Source of the DNA: the human T2T-CHM13v2.0 reference genome, Homo sapiens
Length of the DNA: 64,000 nt
Direction: 5' to 3' (one strand)
NCBI RefSeq assembly: GCF_009914755.1
Contig: NC_060930.1
The stretch's first letter is position 1. The number at the start of each line of letters is the position of its first letter. Shown here in pieces: positions 35,131 to 41,218 of the stretch. The position numbers and the translations under genes were made by a program. The notes under the pieces were generated by a model, which saw only the letters and a program-made list of their open reading frames with translations, did not search any database and was not told the origin of the DNA.

Positions 35131-37058
35131 ATTTACATGGGGCCTCTTGAAAGAATCTGGTCTTTCCCCATGAATAAGTTTTTCATGACTCTTCTTTTCC
35201 TTCATGAGAGAGAGCAAGAAAAGGAAAATGCAACTTATCCTTTCAATGCCTTCTTTTCAGCAGGAAGTAGCCAGACAGACTCAACACCCCTTTTCACTGT
35301 GCCATTTTCCCTTTCTTGAGAACCTAATTGGCAGCAGGTAAACTGAGCTTAGGGAAACATAAAGGATAAAAGATTTGACCAAGATATTTGTCAGGGAGAA
35401 AATGAAGAGAGCAAAGATCACCTAGTGACCATCAAACAGGCCATCCAGAGGTAAAACTCCTTATCTGAGAAATTTAGAAGTAACTAGACTTTCCTATTAT
35501 CTAAATGTGACATCTGGTTCCAGGCTTCTTTCCCTTCAATTCGTAAATAACTAGAATTTCTATACATCTCTGGAATTCATGAATGTCGAAACTCATTGTG
35601 CAACTCTTGCTAATATCAAGGCACCAAAATATCTACTACAAGTGTAATAATTATCATGACCTATGTGGCTAATAAGATCCAAATTTCCCTGCTTTAGGGT
35701 CCATAAACACCTCTAAGGAAAAATCCACAGTGACTTACTCAGTCCTCTCTTGCTGAGGCTTCTCACTTCACTCTTCTGCAGCATTCTTCTAATCTAATAA
35801 AACTTTTCTCTTCATACCTATATTGTTGTTGGTAAGTTCTTCTTGCAAATCACTTCCCTTGCTGGTGCTCTGACACTTCTCCTGGAAACAACAGTATTTG
35901 GAGGACAAAAAATCACTGGCAAATTGTTTAACATTAAAAATGTGATGCCAAAGATCAGATGATTGTAGATGTGTGGTGTGATTTCTGAGGCCTCTGCTCT
36001 GTCCCATTGGTCTATATATCTGTTTTGGTACCAGTACCATACTGTTTTGGTTACTATAGCCTTGTAGTATAGTTTAAAGTCCAGTAGCATGATGCCTCCA
36101 GCTTTTTTCTTTTTGCTTAGAATTGTCTTGGCTACACAGGCTCTTTTTTGGTTCCATATGAACTTTGAAGTAGTTTTTTCCAATTCTGTGAACAAAGTTA
36201 GTGGTAGCTTGATGGTGATAGCATTGAATCTATAAATTACCTTGGGCAGTATGGCCATTTTCACGATATTGATTCTTCCTATCCATGAGCATGAAATGTT
36301 CTTCCATTTGTTTGTGTCCTCTTTTGTTTCATTGAGCAGGGGTTTGTAGTTCTCTTTGATGAGGTCCTTCACATCCCTTGTAAGTATGATTCCCAGGTAT
36401 TTTATTCTCTTTGTAGTAATTGTGAATGGGAGTTCACTCATGATTTGGCTGTTTATCTATTATTGGTGTATAGGAATGTTTGTGATTTTGGCACATTGAT
36501 TTCGTATCCTGAGACTTTGCTGAAGTTGCTTATCAGCTTAATTAAATTTTGGGCTGAGATGATGGGGTTTTCTGAATATACAATCATGTCTCTGCAAACA
36601 GAGATAATTTGACTTCCTCTTTTCCTAATTTAATACCCTTTCTTTCTTTCTCTTGCCTGATGGCCCTAGCCAGAACTTCCAACACTATGTTGAACAGGAT
36701 TGTTGAGAGAGGGCCTCCTTGTCTTGTGCCGGTTTTCAAAGGGAATGCTTCCAGTTTTTGCCCATTCAATATGATATTGGCTGTGGGTTTGTCATAGATA
36801 GCTCTTATTATTTTGAGATAAGTCCCATCAATACCTAGCTTATTGAGAGTTTTTAGCATGAAGGGCTGTTGAATTTTATCAAAGGCCTTTTCTGCATCTA
36901 TTGAGATAATCATGTGGTTTTTGATGTTGGTTCTGTTTTTGTGACAGATTACAATTATTGATTTGCGTATGTTGAACCAGCATTGCATCTCAGTGATGAA
37001 GCCACTTGATCGTGGTGGATAAGTTTTTTGATGTGCTGCTGGATTCGGTTTGCCAGGA

Positions 37059-38783
37059 TTTTTTTTTTTTTTAACTATGAAAGGATCAATTAATTGTGGT
37101 TCAAATACATAAACTGACATTCAAACATCTTAAACTTTAGAACAAAAGTTTAACATTTAAACAGAAGTACAGTTTTCAGGAAACATCCAGAAAGTAATTT
37201 GTCTAATCCAGAGTATTGACAAAGATTGCTTCATGATAAAGTGTGTTTCACCAGCAGTTTTTTTCTTTTTTTCATTCCTCTATAAAAATCACTGGCAGTT
37301 TGATTTAGACCAACTTCATAATGACTGTGGCTCCATACCTTAGAAGAAACTGCTAAATAAATCCCTTAGGTTAATCACCAAGATTGGCCTATAATTTAGA
37401 GGGTATAAGCAAAATATATAAGTGAAAAAATTAAATTGTTCTTTAGAGATGATTTACAAGCATGTCCATTACAGTAATTTTCGCCTCTGACAGATTATTC
37501 AATTTTCAGAGTTTTACTTTTTTCTGGGGGGCGGGGGTAGGGGGGAAGGGAGGGTCTTGCTCTGTTTCCAGGCTGAAGTGCAATGACGTGTTCATGGCTC
37601 ACTGCAGCCTCAACCTCCTGGGCTAAATGCAATCCTCCCACCTCCGCCTCCGGAGTAGCTGGAATTACAGGCACATGCCTCCTTGCCCAGCTAATTTTTC
37701 AATGTTTTGTAGAGGCAGGGTCCCACTATGTTGCCCAGGCTCTTCTCAAACACCTGGGCTCAAGCAATCCTCCCACCTCAGCCTCCCAAAGTGTGTGGAT
37801 TACTTGTGTAAGCCACAGTGCCCGGCCTTACCTGCTTTAAAAAACTAAAAACTTAGGTTTTCTTGGAGTCTGTGCTAGTTGAATCTTGCAAATGCAAACC
37901 ACATATGCTCTTTAATGAAAACCTTTCCATGCACACCACTGTTAGGAAGAGCATCATTAAATCACTGACTTCTACACCCATAAAAGGATGATTTTGAGTT
38001 TCAAGATTTTAGATTTACTAGAGATAGCATGTATTTATCAATAATGTCACACAAAAAATATTTCCAAAGTGTTCTCTGTTCAGAAATGTCACAAATGCTT
38101 CTATTTGTCAGATCATCTTGCAACAGGTCAACTAATACTTATGTACATAAAAACCTGAAAATTGGCACAGGCAGGCATTTTGAATTAGTAGATTACCCCC
38201 ATGGAACAGTATTCAGAATTATTTTGTCTTGTGGGCTCTGAGGCTCTGGGAGGTAGAGGTGGACCCTGACAGTCCAGGTCATCAACATCCACATTCAGTT
38301 GATGCCTCTCAGGCACAGTCCAGTACTCGATACCATTTATCATTCTGCAAAATGTTGTCTACATCTTTCAGGTGCTGGTCATTCTTAGATTAGCTTCTTA
38401 GCTGTTCTGTTGATGAACAGAAGGCTTCAATTTTCAGGATGGATGATTCCAACATCTTCCACAAGCTTTTACTTTCACTATATTATTTGTTATAAATTTG
38501 ATCTCCTTCAAAAGTGCCTTGAAGTCAACTTTGGTTGTAACGTATTTGTCTCTGACGTATTCTTCAAATTCTCTTTGTTTTTTTTTTCCTGTCATTGGAG
38601 AACTGCACCCAGAATCTTATTTTTACTACTTCCACGTGAATGTTAAGGTACTCACAGAGGTTTCATCCAGAAGTCTTCCCTCTTCTTTCTGGTAAGTGCT
38701 TCAATGTGCTCATTAAGCTTCTCTTTCTCTTCCCTTTTCAACAAAGGTCAAGATTCCCAGTGGTGATCTTTTTGATGAGTCCT
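37059..38783 (-). pseudogene. TCERG1: 5'-truncated processed pseudogene of TCERG1 (CA150): C-terminal FF domains, 3'UTR and poly(A)
   Basis: Minus-strand translation fragments KDHHWE..EEKEKL/NEHIEALTRKKRE..DRKK/QREFEEYVRDKYVTTKVDFKALLKEIKFIT..DQHLKDVDNILQNDKWYRVLDC..VDDLDCQGPPLPPRASEPTR match the TCERG1 C-terminus; stop at about 38219-38221; poly(A) is the T-run 37059-37072; frameshifted and intronless. Confidence 0.92.
37518..37827 (-). mobile_element. AluJ within the TCERG1 retrocopy 3'UTR
   Basis: agggtcttgctctg...catggctcactgcagcctcaacctcctgggct...ctatgttgcccaggct...ctgggctcaagcaatcctcccacc (AluJ diagnostics); tail region is G-rich on the plus strand. Confidence 0.9.
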
Positions 38784-39895
38784 TATTGAGGATTTTCGCA
38801 TTGATGTTCATCAGGGATATTGGGCTAAAATTCTCTTTTTTTTGTTGTGTCTCTACCAGGCATTGGTATCAGAATGATGCTAGCCTCATAAAATGAGTTA
38901 AGGAGGATTCCCTCTTTTTCTATCAATTAAAATAGTTTCAGAAGGAATGGTACCAACTCTTCTTTTTACCTCTGGTAGAATTGGGCTGTGAATGTGTCCA
39001 GTCCTGATCTTTTTTTGATTGGTAGGCTATTAATTATTGCCTCAACTTCAGAACCTGTTATTCGTCTATTCAGAGATTCAACTTCTTCCTGGTTTAGTCT
39101 TGGGAGGGTGTATGTGTCCAGGAGTTTATCCATTTCTTCTAGATTTTCTAGTTTATTTGCATAGAGGTGTTTATAGTATTCTCTGATGGTAGTTTGTATT
39201 TCTGTGGGATCAGTGGTGATATCACGTTTATCATTTTTTATTACATCTATTTGATTCTTCTCTTTTTTCTTCTTTATTAGTCTTGCTAGCAGTCTATTTT
39301 GTTGATCTTTTCATAAAGCCAGCTGCTGGATTCATTGATTTTTTGAAGGTTTTTTTGTGTCTCTATCTCCTTCAGTTCTACTCTGATCTTAGTTATTTCT
39401 TGCCTTCTACTAGCTTTTGAATGTGTTTGCTCTTGCTTCTCTAGTTCTTTTAATTGTGATGTTAGGGTGTCAATTTTAGATCTTTCCTGCTTTCTCTTGT
39501 GTACATTTAGTGCTATAAATTTCCCTCTACACACTGCTTTAAGTGTGTCCCAGAGATTCCAGTATGTTATATCTTTGTTCTCATTGGTCAAACCTGACAA
39601 AAAGAAGCAATGGGAAAAGGATTCCCTGTTTAATAAATGGTGCTGGGAAAACCGGCTAGCCATATTTAGAAAGCTGAAACTGGGTCCCTTCCTTACACCA
39701 TATACAAAAATTAACTCAAGGTGGATTAAAGACTTAAATGTAAGACCTAACACCATAAAAACCCTAGAAGAAAACCTAGGCAATACCATTCAGGACATAG
39801 GCATGGGCAAAGACTTCATGACTAAAACACAAAAAGCAATGACAACAAAAGTCAAAATAGACAAATGGGATCTAATTAAACTAAACAGCTTCTGC

Positions 39896-39933
<38 letters not shown>

Positions 39934-41218
39934 AAGAAAGAAAGAAAAGAAAAGAAAAAAATACTATCTTCAGAGTGAACAGGCAACCTGCAGAACGGGA
40001 GAAAATCTTTGCAATCTACCCATCTGACAAAGGGCTAATATCCAGAATCTACAAAGAACTTATACAAATTTACAAGAAAAAATCAAACAACCCTATCAAA
40101 AAGTGGGTGAAGGATACGAACAGACACTTCTCAAAGGAAGACGTTTATGCAGCCAACAGACATGTGAAAAAATGCTCATTACCACTGGTCATCAGATAAA
40201 TGCAAATCAAAACCATAATGAGATACCATCTCACACCAGTTAGAATCACAATCATTAACAAGTCAGAAAACAACAGATGTTGGAGAGGATGTGAAGAAAT
40301 AGGAATGCTTTTACACTGTTGGTGGGAGTGTAAATTTGTTCAACCATTGTGGAAGACAGTGCAAAGTTTCCTCAAGGATCTAGAACTAGAAATACTATTT
40401 GACCCAGTGATCCCATTACTGGGTATATACCCAAGGGATTATAAATCATGCATACTATAAAGACACATGCACATGTATGTTTATTGCATCACTATTCACA
40501 ATAGCAAAAACTTGGAACCAACCCAAATGTCCATCAGTGATAGACTGGATTAAGAAATTGTGGCACATATACACCATGGAATACTATGCAGCCATAACAA
40601 AAGATGAGTTCATGTCCTTTGCAGGGACATGGATGAAGCTGGAAACCATCATTCTAAGCAAACTATCACAAGGACAGAAAACCAAACACTGCATGCTCTC
40701 ACTCATAGATGGGAGTTGAACCACAAGAACACATGGACAGTGCAGGGAACATCACACACCAAGACCTGTCGTGGGGTGGGGTGCTGGGGGAGGGATATCT
40801 TTAAGAGAATACCTAATGTAAATGACGAGTTAATGGGTGCAGCAAACCAACATGGTACATGTATACCTATGTATCAAACCTGCTCATTGTGCACATGTAC
40901 CTTAGAACTTAAGGTATAAAAAAAAGTATGATGCATGTGGAGGTAATACAAGTTGGGACAAACAAGAGACTCTCTAGCAAAAGAAAAAAATAATTCAAAC
41001 AAAATAATATCAGAAATGTGATGTTCATAAGAAACTTTGAAGAGCTTGAAATATATCACTGAGATCTAAAAAGTAATTCATATATGTAGGGCTATGTACA
41101 TGATGAGGAAAGACTTGAGAAGGCAACGGGCTTTCAGATATGACCATGAGCTTCTGAACAAGTAGTCAGTGAAAGTTAATGAAGAGTCCTAAAGTGCTGG
41201 AGCATGAAAGAATGCCCC

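What the first reader, a model, noticed from the sequence alone, without database searches (positions are those of the whole stretch)
37059..38783. Age paradox: an old, AluJ-bearing TCERG1 retrocopy inside a much younger L1PA, probably a second-generation retrocopy
Seen: a polyadenylated TCERG1 retrocopy with many substitutions and indels contains a diverged AluJ. It interrupts an L1 whose ORF2 still gives open fragments of 170-200 aa and whose 3'UTR looks like L1PA6/7. Established: AluJ activity predates L1PA6/7 by tens of millions of years, and an insert cannot be older at this site than its host. Inference: the template was not TCERG1 mRNA. It was a transcript of an older TCERG1 pseudogene that already held the AluJ. 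This implies a germline-expressed source locus elsewhere, such as a lncRNA or another gene's 3'UTR.
Basis: partly seen in the sequence, partly recalled or inferred. Interest (0 to 1): 0.85.

Follow-up and report, generated by a model that had tools for sequence, protein, structure and literature searches.

The report
LYRM2 3'UTR retrocopy carrying old TCERG1 pseudogene
The "TCERG1 pseudogene" in this window is a young, 5'-truncated retrocopy of the long 3'UTR of the gene LYRM2, which holds a much older TCERG1 pseudogene and an old Alu, so the age paradox has an ordinary explanation.

Summary
Window 37059-38776 (minus strand) is a poly(A)-tailed TCERG1-like piece with an internal dimeric Alu, inserted into the ORF2 of an older L1.

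- TCERG1 (chr5) is only about 82% identical, and its 3'UTR has no Alu at that point.
- The same unit, with the same Alu at the same site and the same indels, lies in the last exon of an intron-bearing gene at C6:90.84 Mb. That copy is 97.4% identical (24 differences in 928 nt).
- That gene is LYRM2 (exon-2 translation 94-98% identical to proteins named LYR motif-containing protein 2).
- Spliced LYRM2 retrocopies on chr16, chrX and chr11 carry the same TCERG1-derived 3'UTR. One on chr19 used the proximal poly(A) site.

The ML tree is (TCERG1,(chrX,(chr16,(window,LYRM2)))). The window copy has 10 private substitutions in 918 nt, against a host-L1 own branch of about 3-6%. The copy is therefore young, roughly 10-15 My by inference. 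Its "old" look was inherited.

Today's LYRM2 locus has a chimeric Alu and lacks the distal 0.45 kb. That points to an Alu-Alu deletion after this copy was made.

Verdict: real and nicely resolved, but an ordinary mechanism. Interest 0.3.

The parts
35946..37058 (-). Host L1, inverted arm, part 1 (ORF2 with the reverse-transcriptase region), left flank of the insert.
   Evidence: Pfam RVT_1 on ORF 36584-37120. Best genomic L1 matches to 36759-37058 are 92-94% identical. The arm ends at ...ctgatctttggca, which abuts the direct arm in L1 coordinates.
37059..37072 (-). Poly(A) tail of the retrocopy (T14 on the + strand). Up to 4 of the T's belong to the L1 target TATTTT/ATTGAGG.
   Evidence: The nick site TTTT/A fits the L1 endonuclease preference, which is recalled.
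37073..37517 (-). Distal TCERG1-3'UTR-derived part, which was the ancestral end of the LYRM2 3'UTR. The poly(A) signal, now AATTAA, is at 37090-37095.
   Evidence: Genome search: 91% to the chr16 copy, 89% to chrX, 71% to TCERG1, and no match at the LYRM2 locus (5 of 5 candidates scored). The local blast of this part against the 10 kb of the parent locus also found nothing. Alignment.
37518..37827 (-). Dimeric Alu (AluJ by recalled diagnostics) with a C-rich tract and short A run at 37518-37549. It was carried in with the transcript and did not insert here.
   Evidence: Rfam Metazoa_SRP hits for two monomers. The chr16, chrX and LYRM2 copies have the Alu at the same site, and TCERG1 has none. 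Nearest genomic Alus are 81-83% identical.
37828..38218 (-). Proximal TCERG1-3'UTR-derived part.
   Evidence: Alignment. The 944-nt query 37840-38783 is 97% identical to the LYRM2 3'UTR and 76% to TCERG1.
38219..38776 (-). TCERG1 coding-exon-derived part. It runs from inside the exon encoding residues 911-970 to the stop codon (stop at 38219-38221). The frame is broken by indels.
   Evidence: Exon-by-exon mapping to C5. The chr5 exon matches PDB chains named Transcription elongation regulator 1 and the Pfam FF domain.
38402..38486 (-). It derives from a 94-nt AG/GT-flanked cassette in the last TCERG1 intron (C5:147045936-147046029), whose inclusion gives an immediate in-frame TAA.
   Evidence: Identity is 66/85 to TCERG1 and 81/85 to the LYRM2 3'UTR.
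38777..39589 (-). Host L1, inverted arm, part 2 (ORF2), right flank of the insert.
   Evidence: Continuous with the left flank in 3 of 3 uninterrupted L1 copies. Masked as repeat in the hub's table.
39590..40925 (+). Host L1, direct arm (end of ORF2, 3'UTR, A tail). It contains an A/GAAA-rich expansion at about 39905-39960.

Best explanation
Window 37059-38776 (minus strand) is a 5'-truncated, L1-mediated processed copy of the long-3'UTR mRNA of LYRM2 (6q15). It is not a copy of TCERG1 mRNA.

The inferred history is as follows.
1. An ancient 5'-truncated TCERG1 processed pseudogene landed just downstream of LYRM2's original poly(A) site, on the order of 100 My ago. It came from an isoform containing a 94-nt stop-bearing cassette exon.
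2. Read-through LYRM2 transcripts then ended at the pseudogene's own poly(A) signal. The pseudogene became the distal part of LYRM2's last exon.
3. An old Alu (AluJ type) inserted into the pseudogene's 3'UTR part.
4. LYRM2 mRNAs were then retrocopied repeatedly: chr11 (old, alternatively spliced), chrX, chr16, a chr1 fragment, chr19 (short UTR), and last the window copy.
5. The window copy was reverse-transcribed from the poly(A) tail at a TTTT/A nick inside an older L1 ORF2. Reverse transcription stopped within the TCERG1-derived region.

The copy therefore holds only TCERG1-like sequence plus the Alu, and it looks like an old TCERG1 pseudogene.

Shown: the relationships, shared indels and Alu, introns in the parent, poly(A) tails, target-site duplications of sister copies, and the tree. 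Inferred: absolute dates, germline expression of LYRM2, and use of the pseudogene's poly(A) signal.
For: 1) Genome search with the whole piece (40 of 9815 candidates scored).
- Full-length matches including the Alu: C16:17100095-17101882 (90%) and C23:115776069-115777817 (88%).
- C6:90844203-90845378 matches query positions 1-1216 at 91%.
- TCERG1 (C5:147046320-147047359) matches at only 76% and 71%, with the Alu interval missing.

2) Non-Alu 944 nt (8 of 8 candidates scored): C6:90.84 Mb 97%, chr16 93%, chrX 90%, TCERG1 76-87%.

3) Flanks are not shared with any sister copy.

4) Alignment. The window, C6, chr16 and chrX copies share 9 deletions and 5 insertions relative to TCERG1, and the Alu at the same site. 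Differences: window-C6 24/928, window-chr16 38/923, window-chrX 55/923, window-TCERG1 162/914.

5) Tree and private changes.
- The ML tree is (TCERG1,(chrX,(chr16,(window,C6)))) with supports 97/95 and 91/92. End branches are 0.015 for the window and 0.013 for C6.
- Window and C6 alone share 6 substitutions and 4 indels.
- Private substitutions are 10/918 (window) and 9/918 (C6).

6) The C6 locus is the parent gene.
- It has two GT-AG introns of about 0.79 and 0.39 kb, absent from the chrX, chr19 and chr11 copies (the chr16 copy lacks the second and begins at an alternative exon inside the first), and an intact 88-codon ORF.
- Exon 2 hits Pfam Complex1_LYR at 52 bits.
- Exon 2 is 94-98% identical to proteins named LYR motif-containing protein 2. 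74 of 79 candidates had E<=1e-5.
- LYRM2 maps to 6q15 (PMC10424445, one table passage seen).

7) Sister copies are true retrocopies.
- chr16 has a 14-nt target-site duplication and a spliced alternative first exon that matches LYRM2 intron 1 at 92%.
- chr19 has a 9-nt duplication and a tail right after the proximal AATAAA.
- chr11 joins exon 2 to an acceptor inside the TCERG1-derived part.
- Cleavage sites differ between the window/chr16 copies and the chrX copy.

8) The insertion is at TATTTT/ATTGAGG of L1, with the L1 sequence otherwise continuous.

9) The host L1 is older than the insert. Its own branch is 0.058-0.063 by a star estimate, and it has 30/900 strictly private differences. The insert has 10/918.
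Against: - The window copy lies wholly inside what is one LYRM2 exon. It contains no LYRM2-specific sequence and no LYRM2 splice junction, so its LYRM2 origin rests on similarity, shared indels and the tree, not on a junction.
- There is no clear target-site duplication. At most 2-4 T/A bases are duplicated, and they cannot be told from the tail.
- The present LYRM2 locus lacks the distal 0.45 kb that the window copy has. A later deletion in the parent must therefore be assumed. A lost intermediate copy cannot be strictly excluded.
- The window+LYRM2 clade has support 91/92, good but not maximal, on 6 substitutions.
- Repeat subfamily names and absolute ages rest on recalled diagnostics and rates, not on a library or on other primate genomes.
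Confidence: 0.93

Rival explanations
1. First-generation TCERG1 retrocopy: TCERG1 mRNA was copied into the L1, and an Alu later inserted into the copy at this site.
For: RefSeq labels it a TCERG1 pseudogene (hub table). Its exon order and poly(A) site are those of TCERG1.
Against: - Identity to TCERG1 is about 82%, against 97.4% to the LYRM2 3'UTR.
- 14 indels and the Alu are shared with three other loci, and TCERG1 has no Alu there.
- Only 10 of 918 positions are private to this copy.
- An in-situ Alu insertion could not be shared site-for-site with copies on chr16, chrX and chr6:90.84 Mb that have unrelated flanks.
Confidence: 0.01
2. DNA-level duplication or gene conversion: a piece of the LYRM2 3' region was copied as DNA into the L1, without an RNA intermediate.
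For: There is no clear target-site duplication. The copy contains no LYRM2 splice junction.
Against: - The copy ends in a T14/A14 tail about 17 nt after the poly(A) signal, at the same cleavage region as the chr16 copy.
- The tail is not templated in TCERG1, and the chrX copy reads on into other sequence at that point.
- The insertion sits at a TTTT/A site.
- The 5' end is truncated in the usual way, and no homology extends beyond the transcript.
- Four sister copies are demonstrably spliced.
Confidence: 0.03
3. Third-generation copy: the template was a transcript of another LYRM2 retrocopy (for example chr16 or chrX) or of a lost duplicate, not of the LYRM2 gene itself.
For: The present LYRM2 locus lacks the distal 0.45 kb, and chr16 and chrX have it.
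Against: - The window is nearest to LYRM2: K2P 0.026, against 0.042 for chr16 and 0.062 for chrX.
- It shares 6 substitutions and 4 indels with LYRM2 alone, with tree support 91/92.
- The first ~60 columns of the Alu stretch of the alignment (a few flank bases, then the start of the Alu) are 59/60 identical between window and LYRM2, after which the LYRM2 Alu switches to another Alu type. That is as expected of a later recombination.
Confidence: 0.03

Closest known systems
Ordinary L1-mediated processed pseudogenes (5'-truncated retrocopies of mRNAs)
   Same: Poly(A) tail after the poly(A) signal, 5' truncation, insertion at a TTTT/A site, no shared flanks, and sister copies that lack introns and have target-site duplications.
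   Different: The retained part holds none of the parent's own sequence. It holds only a passenger pseudogene from a different gene plus an Alu, so similarity-based naming assigns the wrong parent and an apparent age that is far too old.
[quoted passage not shown]
   Same: The old TCERG1 pseudogene forms the distal part of LYRM2's last exon, in sense orientation. It ancestrally supplied the distal poly(A) site.
   Different: Here the recruited retrocopy was itself re-copied several times as part of the host mRNA. LYRM2 and TCERG1 do not occur in the one supplementary file of that paper held as text.
L1 3' transduction (flanking DNA carried along by read-through transcripts; recalled)
   Same: The logic is the same. 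Sequence downstream of a transcription unit is mobilised because transcription runs through to a downstream poly(A) signal. Severely 5'-truncated copies contain only the passenger.
   Different: The carrier is a cellular mRNA (LYRM2) copied in trans, not an L1 transcript. No L1 sequence precedes the unit in the full-length sister copies.
Alu recombination-mediated deletion (recalled concept)
   Same: The present LYRM2 locus has a hybrid Alu. The first ~60 columns of the Alu stretch of the alignment (a few flank bases, then the start of the Alu) match the family Alu at 59/60, and the rest is of another Alu type. The intervening sequence is gone.
   Different: The pre-deletion state is documented here only by retrocopies, not by an outgroup genome. 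The size of the deletion is unknown.

Membership tests
L1-mediated processed pseudogene of LYRM2 | Closest relative is the parent's mature transcript, with shared derived changes | tested here: met
   24/928 differences to the LYRM2 last exon, against 162/914 to TCERG1. Window and LYRM2 exclusively share 6 substitutions and 4 indels. Tree support is 91/92.
L1-mediated processed pseudogene of LYRM2 | Lacks the parent's introns | tested here: inconclusive
   The window copy is truncated inside the last exon, so no LYRM2 junction is covered. The sister copies on chrX, chr16, chr19 and chr11 lack the introns they span.
L1-mediated processed pseudogene of LYRM2 | Untemplated poly(A) tail just downstream of a poly(A) signal | tested here: met
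   A T14 run at 37059-37072 follows AATTAA (from AATAAA). The cleavage region is the same as in the chr16 copy, and the chrX copy was cleaved about 45 nt further on.
L1-mediated processed pseudogene of LYRM2 | Insertion at an L1 endonuclease-type site with a target-site duplication | tested here: inconclusive
   The site TATTTT/ATTGAGG fits. Any duplication is at most 2-4 T/A bases and cannot be told from the tail. The chr16 and chr19 sisters have 14-nt and 9-nt duplications.
First-generation TCERG1 processed pseudogene (RefSeq label LOC100420940) | Derived directly from TCERG1 mRNA: nearest to TCERG1 and colinear with its mRNA | tested here: not met
   It is TCERG1-derived only at second hand. 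It is about 82% identical to TCERG1 and carries an Alu absent from TCERG1's 3'UTR. The RefSeq span 38221-39516 also runs about 740 nt into L1 ORF2.
AluJ | Dimeric 7SL-derived element of about 280-300 nt | tested here: met
   Two Metazoa_SRP-like monomers on the minus strand. The body is 282 nt with 4 CpG left.
AluJ | Subfamily-diagnostic positions | not testable with these tools
   No repeat library is on hand. Motifs such as GGAGGATTGCTTGAGCCCAGG in both monomers and GAGGCTGCAGTGAGCCATGA match the AluJ consensus as I recall it. The nearest genomic Alus are 81-83% identical.
Middle-aged primate L1 (reader: L1PA6/7) | L1 ORF2 with reverse transcriptase; divergence of a 25-45 My old copy | tested here: inconclusive
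   RVT_1 is present. The star-tree own branch is 0.058-0.063 and private differences are 30/900. Best genomic matches are 86-91% for the 3' 926 nt and 92-94% for 300 nt of ORF2. The subfamily name was not testable, and the age-to-name link is recalled.
Alu recombination-mediated deletion in the parent LYRM2 3'UTR | Hybrid Alu at the junction and loss of the sequence between two Alus | tested here: met
   Window-parent identity along the Alu is 30/30 and 29/30, then 20/30, 5/30, 8/30 and so on. The distal 0.45 kb is absent from the 10 kb around LYRM2 and from the genome at more than 91% identity. An ancestral state from an outgroup species was not tested.

The most novel reading that the evidence does not exclude
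The LYRM2 retrocopies are dated fossils of the gene's transcript history, and they suggest three things.

(a) For tens of millions of years LYRM2's long isoform ended at the poly(A) signal of a captured TCERG1 pseudogene.

(b) Within roughly the last 10-15 My an AluJ x AluS-type recombination removed that end from the lineage represented by this assembly. This would be an ape-lineage remodelling of the 3'UTR of a mitochondrial LYR-motif gene.

(c) The captured pseudogene preserves a roughly 100-My-old TCERG1 isoform that includes a 94-nt stop-bearing cassette exon still flanked by AG/GT in TCERG1. This hints at a conserved, undescribed poison exon in that gene.

More generally, 'hitch-hiker' pseudogenes of this kind would be assigned the wrong parent and the wrong age by similarity-based pipelines.
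Probability: 0.55. Interest if true: 0.4.

Novelty: new member of a known kind. Interest (0 to 1): 0.3.

Why it matters
- **Resolved paradox.** An old Alu sits inside an insert that sits inside a younger L1. This needs only standard retroposition and no new mechanism.
- **Annotation error.** RefSeq names this piece a TCERG1 pseudogene, but its direct parent is LYRM2. Its high divergence from TCERG1 would date it about tenfold too old.
- **Survey bias.** Surveys that date or assign retrocopies by similarity to a protein-coding parent will misplace such passengers.
- **Record of the ancestral 3' end.** The sister copies record the earlier 3' end of LYRM2, which the present locus has lost. They give a simple handle for dating that loss.

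Tried and rejected
- **Apparent shared 5' end.** In one search all copies start at query position 1, which at first looked like a defined transcript start. It was an artefact of where my query ended. The chr16, chrX and C6 copies extend about 1.5 kb further.
- **L1 3' transduction and segmental duplication.** I considered both for the family. I rejected them because flanks differ, full-length copies start with LYRM2 exons, and tails and target-site duplications are present.
- **Naming the repeat subfamilies.** No repeat library is available. Rfam only confirms the 7SL-like Alu monomers. Its third hit, mir-3135 at 38 bits against a gathering score of 80, lies inside the Alu, and I take it as Alu-derived noise.
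- **Star estimate for the Alu.** It gave an own branch of 0.087. It is biased by picking the six nearest Alus, so I do not use it for dating.
- **Pfam on host ORFs.** 5 of the 6 host ORFs gave no family.
- **PDB.** No chain matches the LYRM2 exon.
- **Literature.**
  - No listed paper links LYRM2 and TCERG1 (43 papers hold at least 2 of the 3 terms; of the 15 listed, none holds both names).
  - 'LYRM2' with 'processed pseudogene' gives one unrelated paper.
  - Six phrasings of 'retrocopy of a retrocopy' give 0 papers.
  - 'TCERG1' with 'poison exon' gives 0 papers.
  - These searches cover only the held open-access library.
Full report
**What is in the window**

Reading 35800-41000 shows the following layout.
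- L1 ORF2 sequence in antisense runs up to 37058.
- A T14 run follows at 37059-37072.
- About 1.7 kb of antisense TCERG1-like sequence follows, interrupted at about 37518-37827 by an antisense Alu.
- L1 ORF2 resumes from about 38777.

Rfam finds two 7SL-like monomers on the minus strand inside the Alu.

The flanks are one L1.
- Three of three uninterrupted genomic L1 copies read ...gccagtatttt|attgaggattttt... across the point where the window has the insert.
- The left-flank ORF carries Pfam RVT_1. It is the only one of the 6 ORFs scanned that hit a family.
- Open ORF2 fragments of 212, 178, 167 and 114 aa exist.

The true 5' end of the insert is about 38776, not 38783. That is where the alignment to sister copies stops.

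The full 1725-nt piece was searched first (40 of 9815 candidates scored).
- It matches chr16:17100095-17101882 at 90% and chrX:115776069-115777817 at 88%, over its whole length including the Alu.
- It matches chr6:90844203-90845378 at 91% over positions 1-1216.
- TCERG1 (chr5:147046320-147047359) matches at only 76% and 71%, and the Alu interval is missing there.

The two non-Alu parts were then searched separately.
- For the 944 non-Alu nt, the chr6:90.84 Mb locus is 97% identical, chr16 93%, chrX 90% and TCERG1 76-87% (8 of 8 candidates scored).
- The distal 442 nt matches chr16 (91%), chrX (89%), chr11 (75%) and TCERG1 (71%). It does not match chr6:90.84 Mb (5 of 5 scored).

Flanking DNA is not shared between any of these loci, so they are separate insertions. 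The chr5 locus is TCERG1. One of its exons translates to residues 911-970 of PDB chains named Transcription elongation regulator 1, with FF-domain hits.

**Identifying the source**

The chr16 and chrX copies extend about 1.5 kb further 5' than the window copy. That extra part has no match in the 74 kb spanning TCERG1. Searching with it found the chr6:90.84 Mb locus in two pieces, plus a further copy on chr19.

The upstream part begins with a small ORF. At chr6:90.84 Mb this ORF is split by two GT-AG introns of about 0.79 and 0.39 kb. The chrX, chr19 and chr11 copies lack both introns. The chr16 copy lacks the second and starts from an alternative exon inside the first. The ORF at chr6:90.84 Mb is intact at 88 codons.

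The gene is LYRM2.
- Exon 2 hits Pfam Complex1_LYR.
- Exon 2 is 94-98% identical to primate and other mammalian proteins named LYR motif-containing protein 2. 74 of 79 candidates had E<=1e-5.
- A table passage in PMC10424445 places LYRM2 at 6q15.

So chr6:90.84 Mb is the LYRM2 gene, and the TCERG1-like unit with its Alu lies in sense orientation in LYRM2's long last exon.

**Shared derived characters**

I aligned TCERG1 (its five 3'-most exon stretches), the window copy, the LYRM2 last exon, and the chr16 and chrX copies.
- The four LYRM2-type sequences share 9 deletions and 5 insertions relative to TCERG1 before the Alu.
- They share the Alu at the same position. TCERG1 reads straight through at that point.

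Differences before the Alu:

| Pair | Differences |
|---|---|
| window-LYRM2 | 24/928 |
| window-chr16 | 38/923 |
| window-chrX | 55/923 |
| window-TCERG1 | 162/914 |

- Window and LYRM2 alone share 6 substitutions and 4 indels (3, 9, 5 and 6 nt).
- Private substitutions are window 10, LYRM2 9, chr16 18 and chrX 35, each of 918.
- The ML tree is (TCERG1,(chrX,(chr16,(window,LYRM2)))) with supports 97/95 and 91/92. The window's end branch is 0.015.

**Sister copies are genuine retrocopies of different LYRM2 transcripts**

- chr16 has a 14-nt target-site duplication. Its 77-nt 5' exon matches a stretch inside LYRM2 intron 1 at 92% and is spliced to exon 2.
- chr19 has a 9-nt duplication. Its tail starts right after the proximal AATAAA, just upstream of where the TCERG1 pseudogene begins.
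- chr11 is older. It joins LYRM2 exon 2 directly to an AG acceptor inside the TCERG1-derived distal part, equivalent to window 37338.
- chr1 holds a 222-nt fragment of family type: 86-88% to the four aligned family sequences and 75% to TCERG1.
- The window and chr16 copies were cleaved at about the same place after the TCERG1-derived AATAAA. The chrX copy was cleaved about 45 nt further on.

**How the window copy arose (inferred from the anatomy)**

- The + strand reads L1 ...GGATTTT, then the T run, then antisense 3'UTR. Uninterrupted L1 copies have TATTTT/ATTGAGG at that point.
- This is the pattern expected if the L1 endonuclease nicked at TTTT/A and the T's primed on the poly(A) tail. The site preference is recalled.
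- Reverse transcription ended inside the TCERG1-derived region, so no LYRM2-specific sequence was copied.
- Any target-site duplication is at most 2-4 bases and ambiguous.

**Ages**

- The insert's private divergence is 10/918 (1.1%), and its ML branch is 0.015.
- With recalled great-ape per-lineage divergences, this suggests roughly 10-15 My, with a wide Poisson range. This is an inference.
- For the host L1 I used its 3' 926 nt and 8 genomic relatives taken from the top of the table, which lists 39 non-self matches. The mean distance from the window copy to them is 0.100. The mean distance among them is 0.075.
- That gives a star-tree own branch of 0.058-0.063, with 30/900 strictly private differences against 14-22/900 for each relative.
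- The best genomic matches are 86-91% for that 926-nt stretch and 92-94% for 300 nt of ORF2.
- The L1 is therefore clearly older than the insert.
- The TCERG1-to-family distance (K2P about 0.20 before the Alu and about 0.23 after it) puts the original pseudogene at the order of 100 My. This is an inference.
- The Alu is at least as old as the chrX copy.

There is thus no paradox. The divergence and the Alu were inherited from the LYRM2 3'UTR.

**The 'extra segment'**

- Window 38402-38486 corresponds to a 94-nt AG/GT-flanked stretch in the last TCERG1 intron, C5:147045936-147046029.
- In the incoming reading frame it gives an immediate TAA, and its length is not a multiple of three.
- The ancient pseudogene therefore came from a spliced isoform containing this cassette.
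- No paper in the held library pairs 'TCERG1' with 'poison exon'.

**The parent has changed since**

- In today's LYRM2 locus, the first ~60 columns of the Alu stretch of the alignment (a few flank bases, then the start of the Alu) match the window's at 59/60. Identity then drops to 5/30-20/30 in most later 30-nt blocks.
- The remainder looks like an AluS-type element by recalled motifs.
- The distal 0.45 kb is absent from the 10 kb around the gene and from the genome at more than 91% identity.
- The simplest reading is an Alu-Alu recombination deletion after the window copy was made.
- Whether it is fixed in humans, and how large it was, cannot be told here.

**Comparison with what is known**

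- Retrocopies recruited into host-gene UTRs are described (PMC7290577, section 3.3.4; passages seen). LYRM2 and TCERG1 are not in its held supplement.
- I found no paper linking LYRM2 and TCERG1 pseudogenes. I found none using the phrases I tried for retrocopies of retrocopies. These searches cover only the held library.
- The mechanism is standard.
- The particular case, and the RefSeq misattribution of parent, seem undescribed. The RefSeq span 38221-39516 also runs into L1.

**Verdict**

The kind of event is ordinary. Interest is 0.3.

Noticed in passing
window 35946-40925: The host L1 is a single 5'-inverted insertion of the twin-priming type. The inverted arm (35946-39589, minus strand) ends at ...ctgatctttggca, and the direct arm starts at ...aaacctgacaaaaag. 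These two points are adjacent in the 3 uninterrupted L1 copies fetched.
   Followed up: yes
window 39905-39960: An A-run followed by GAAA-type repeats expands a short A-rich spot inside the ORF2 end of the L1 direct arm.
   Followed up: no
L034 (C5:147045936-147046029), window 38402-38486: A 94-nt AG/GT-flanked cassette lies in the last TCERG1 intron and gives an immediate TAA when included. It is preserved in the ancient pseudogene, so it was spliced in long ago. It is a candidate conserved poison exon. No paper pairs 'TCERG1' with 'poison exon'.
   Followed up: partly
L027 (C6:90844164-90844425): The Alu in the present LYRM2 3'UTR is a hybrid, and the distal 0.45 kb of the TCERG1-derived part is gone. 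This is probably an Alu-Alu recombination deletion younger than the window copy.
   Followed up: partly
L023 (C11:44812918-44813203 and upstream): An older LYRM2 retrocopy in which exon 2 is spliced to an acceptor inside the TCERG1-derived 3' part. A later Alu insertion sits around the exon 1/exon 2 join. It shows that the pseudogene served as an alternative terminal exon long ago.
   Followed up: partly
L024 (chr16 copy 5' end) and L027 (LYRM2 intron 1, C6:90847779-90847855): The chr16 retrocopy starts with 77 nt that match a stretch inside LYRM2 intron 1 (92%), joined to exon 2. This indicates an alternative first exon.
   Followed up: partly
L038 (chr19 copy) and L027 (about C6:90845515): LYRM2's proximal poly(A) signal (CTCAATAAAGCTG) lies at the end of what looks like an old L1 3' end (recalled, not tested). 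The TCERG1 pseudogene starts a few tens of bases downstream. The chr19 retrocopy used this proximal site.
   Followed up: no
window 38221-39516: The RefSeq span of LOC100420940 starts at the TCERG1 stop codon but runs about 740 nt past the real 5' end of the insert (about 38776) into L1 ORF2. It also omits the 3'UTR-derived 1.1 kb.
   Followed up: partly
window 37524-37549: A C-rich tract (on the Alu's strand) lies between the Alu body and its short A run. It is also present, with length variation, in the chr16 and chrX copies, so it predates them. Its origin is unexplained.
   Followed up: no
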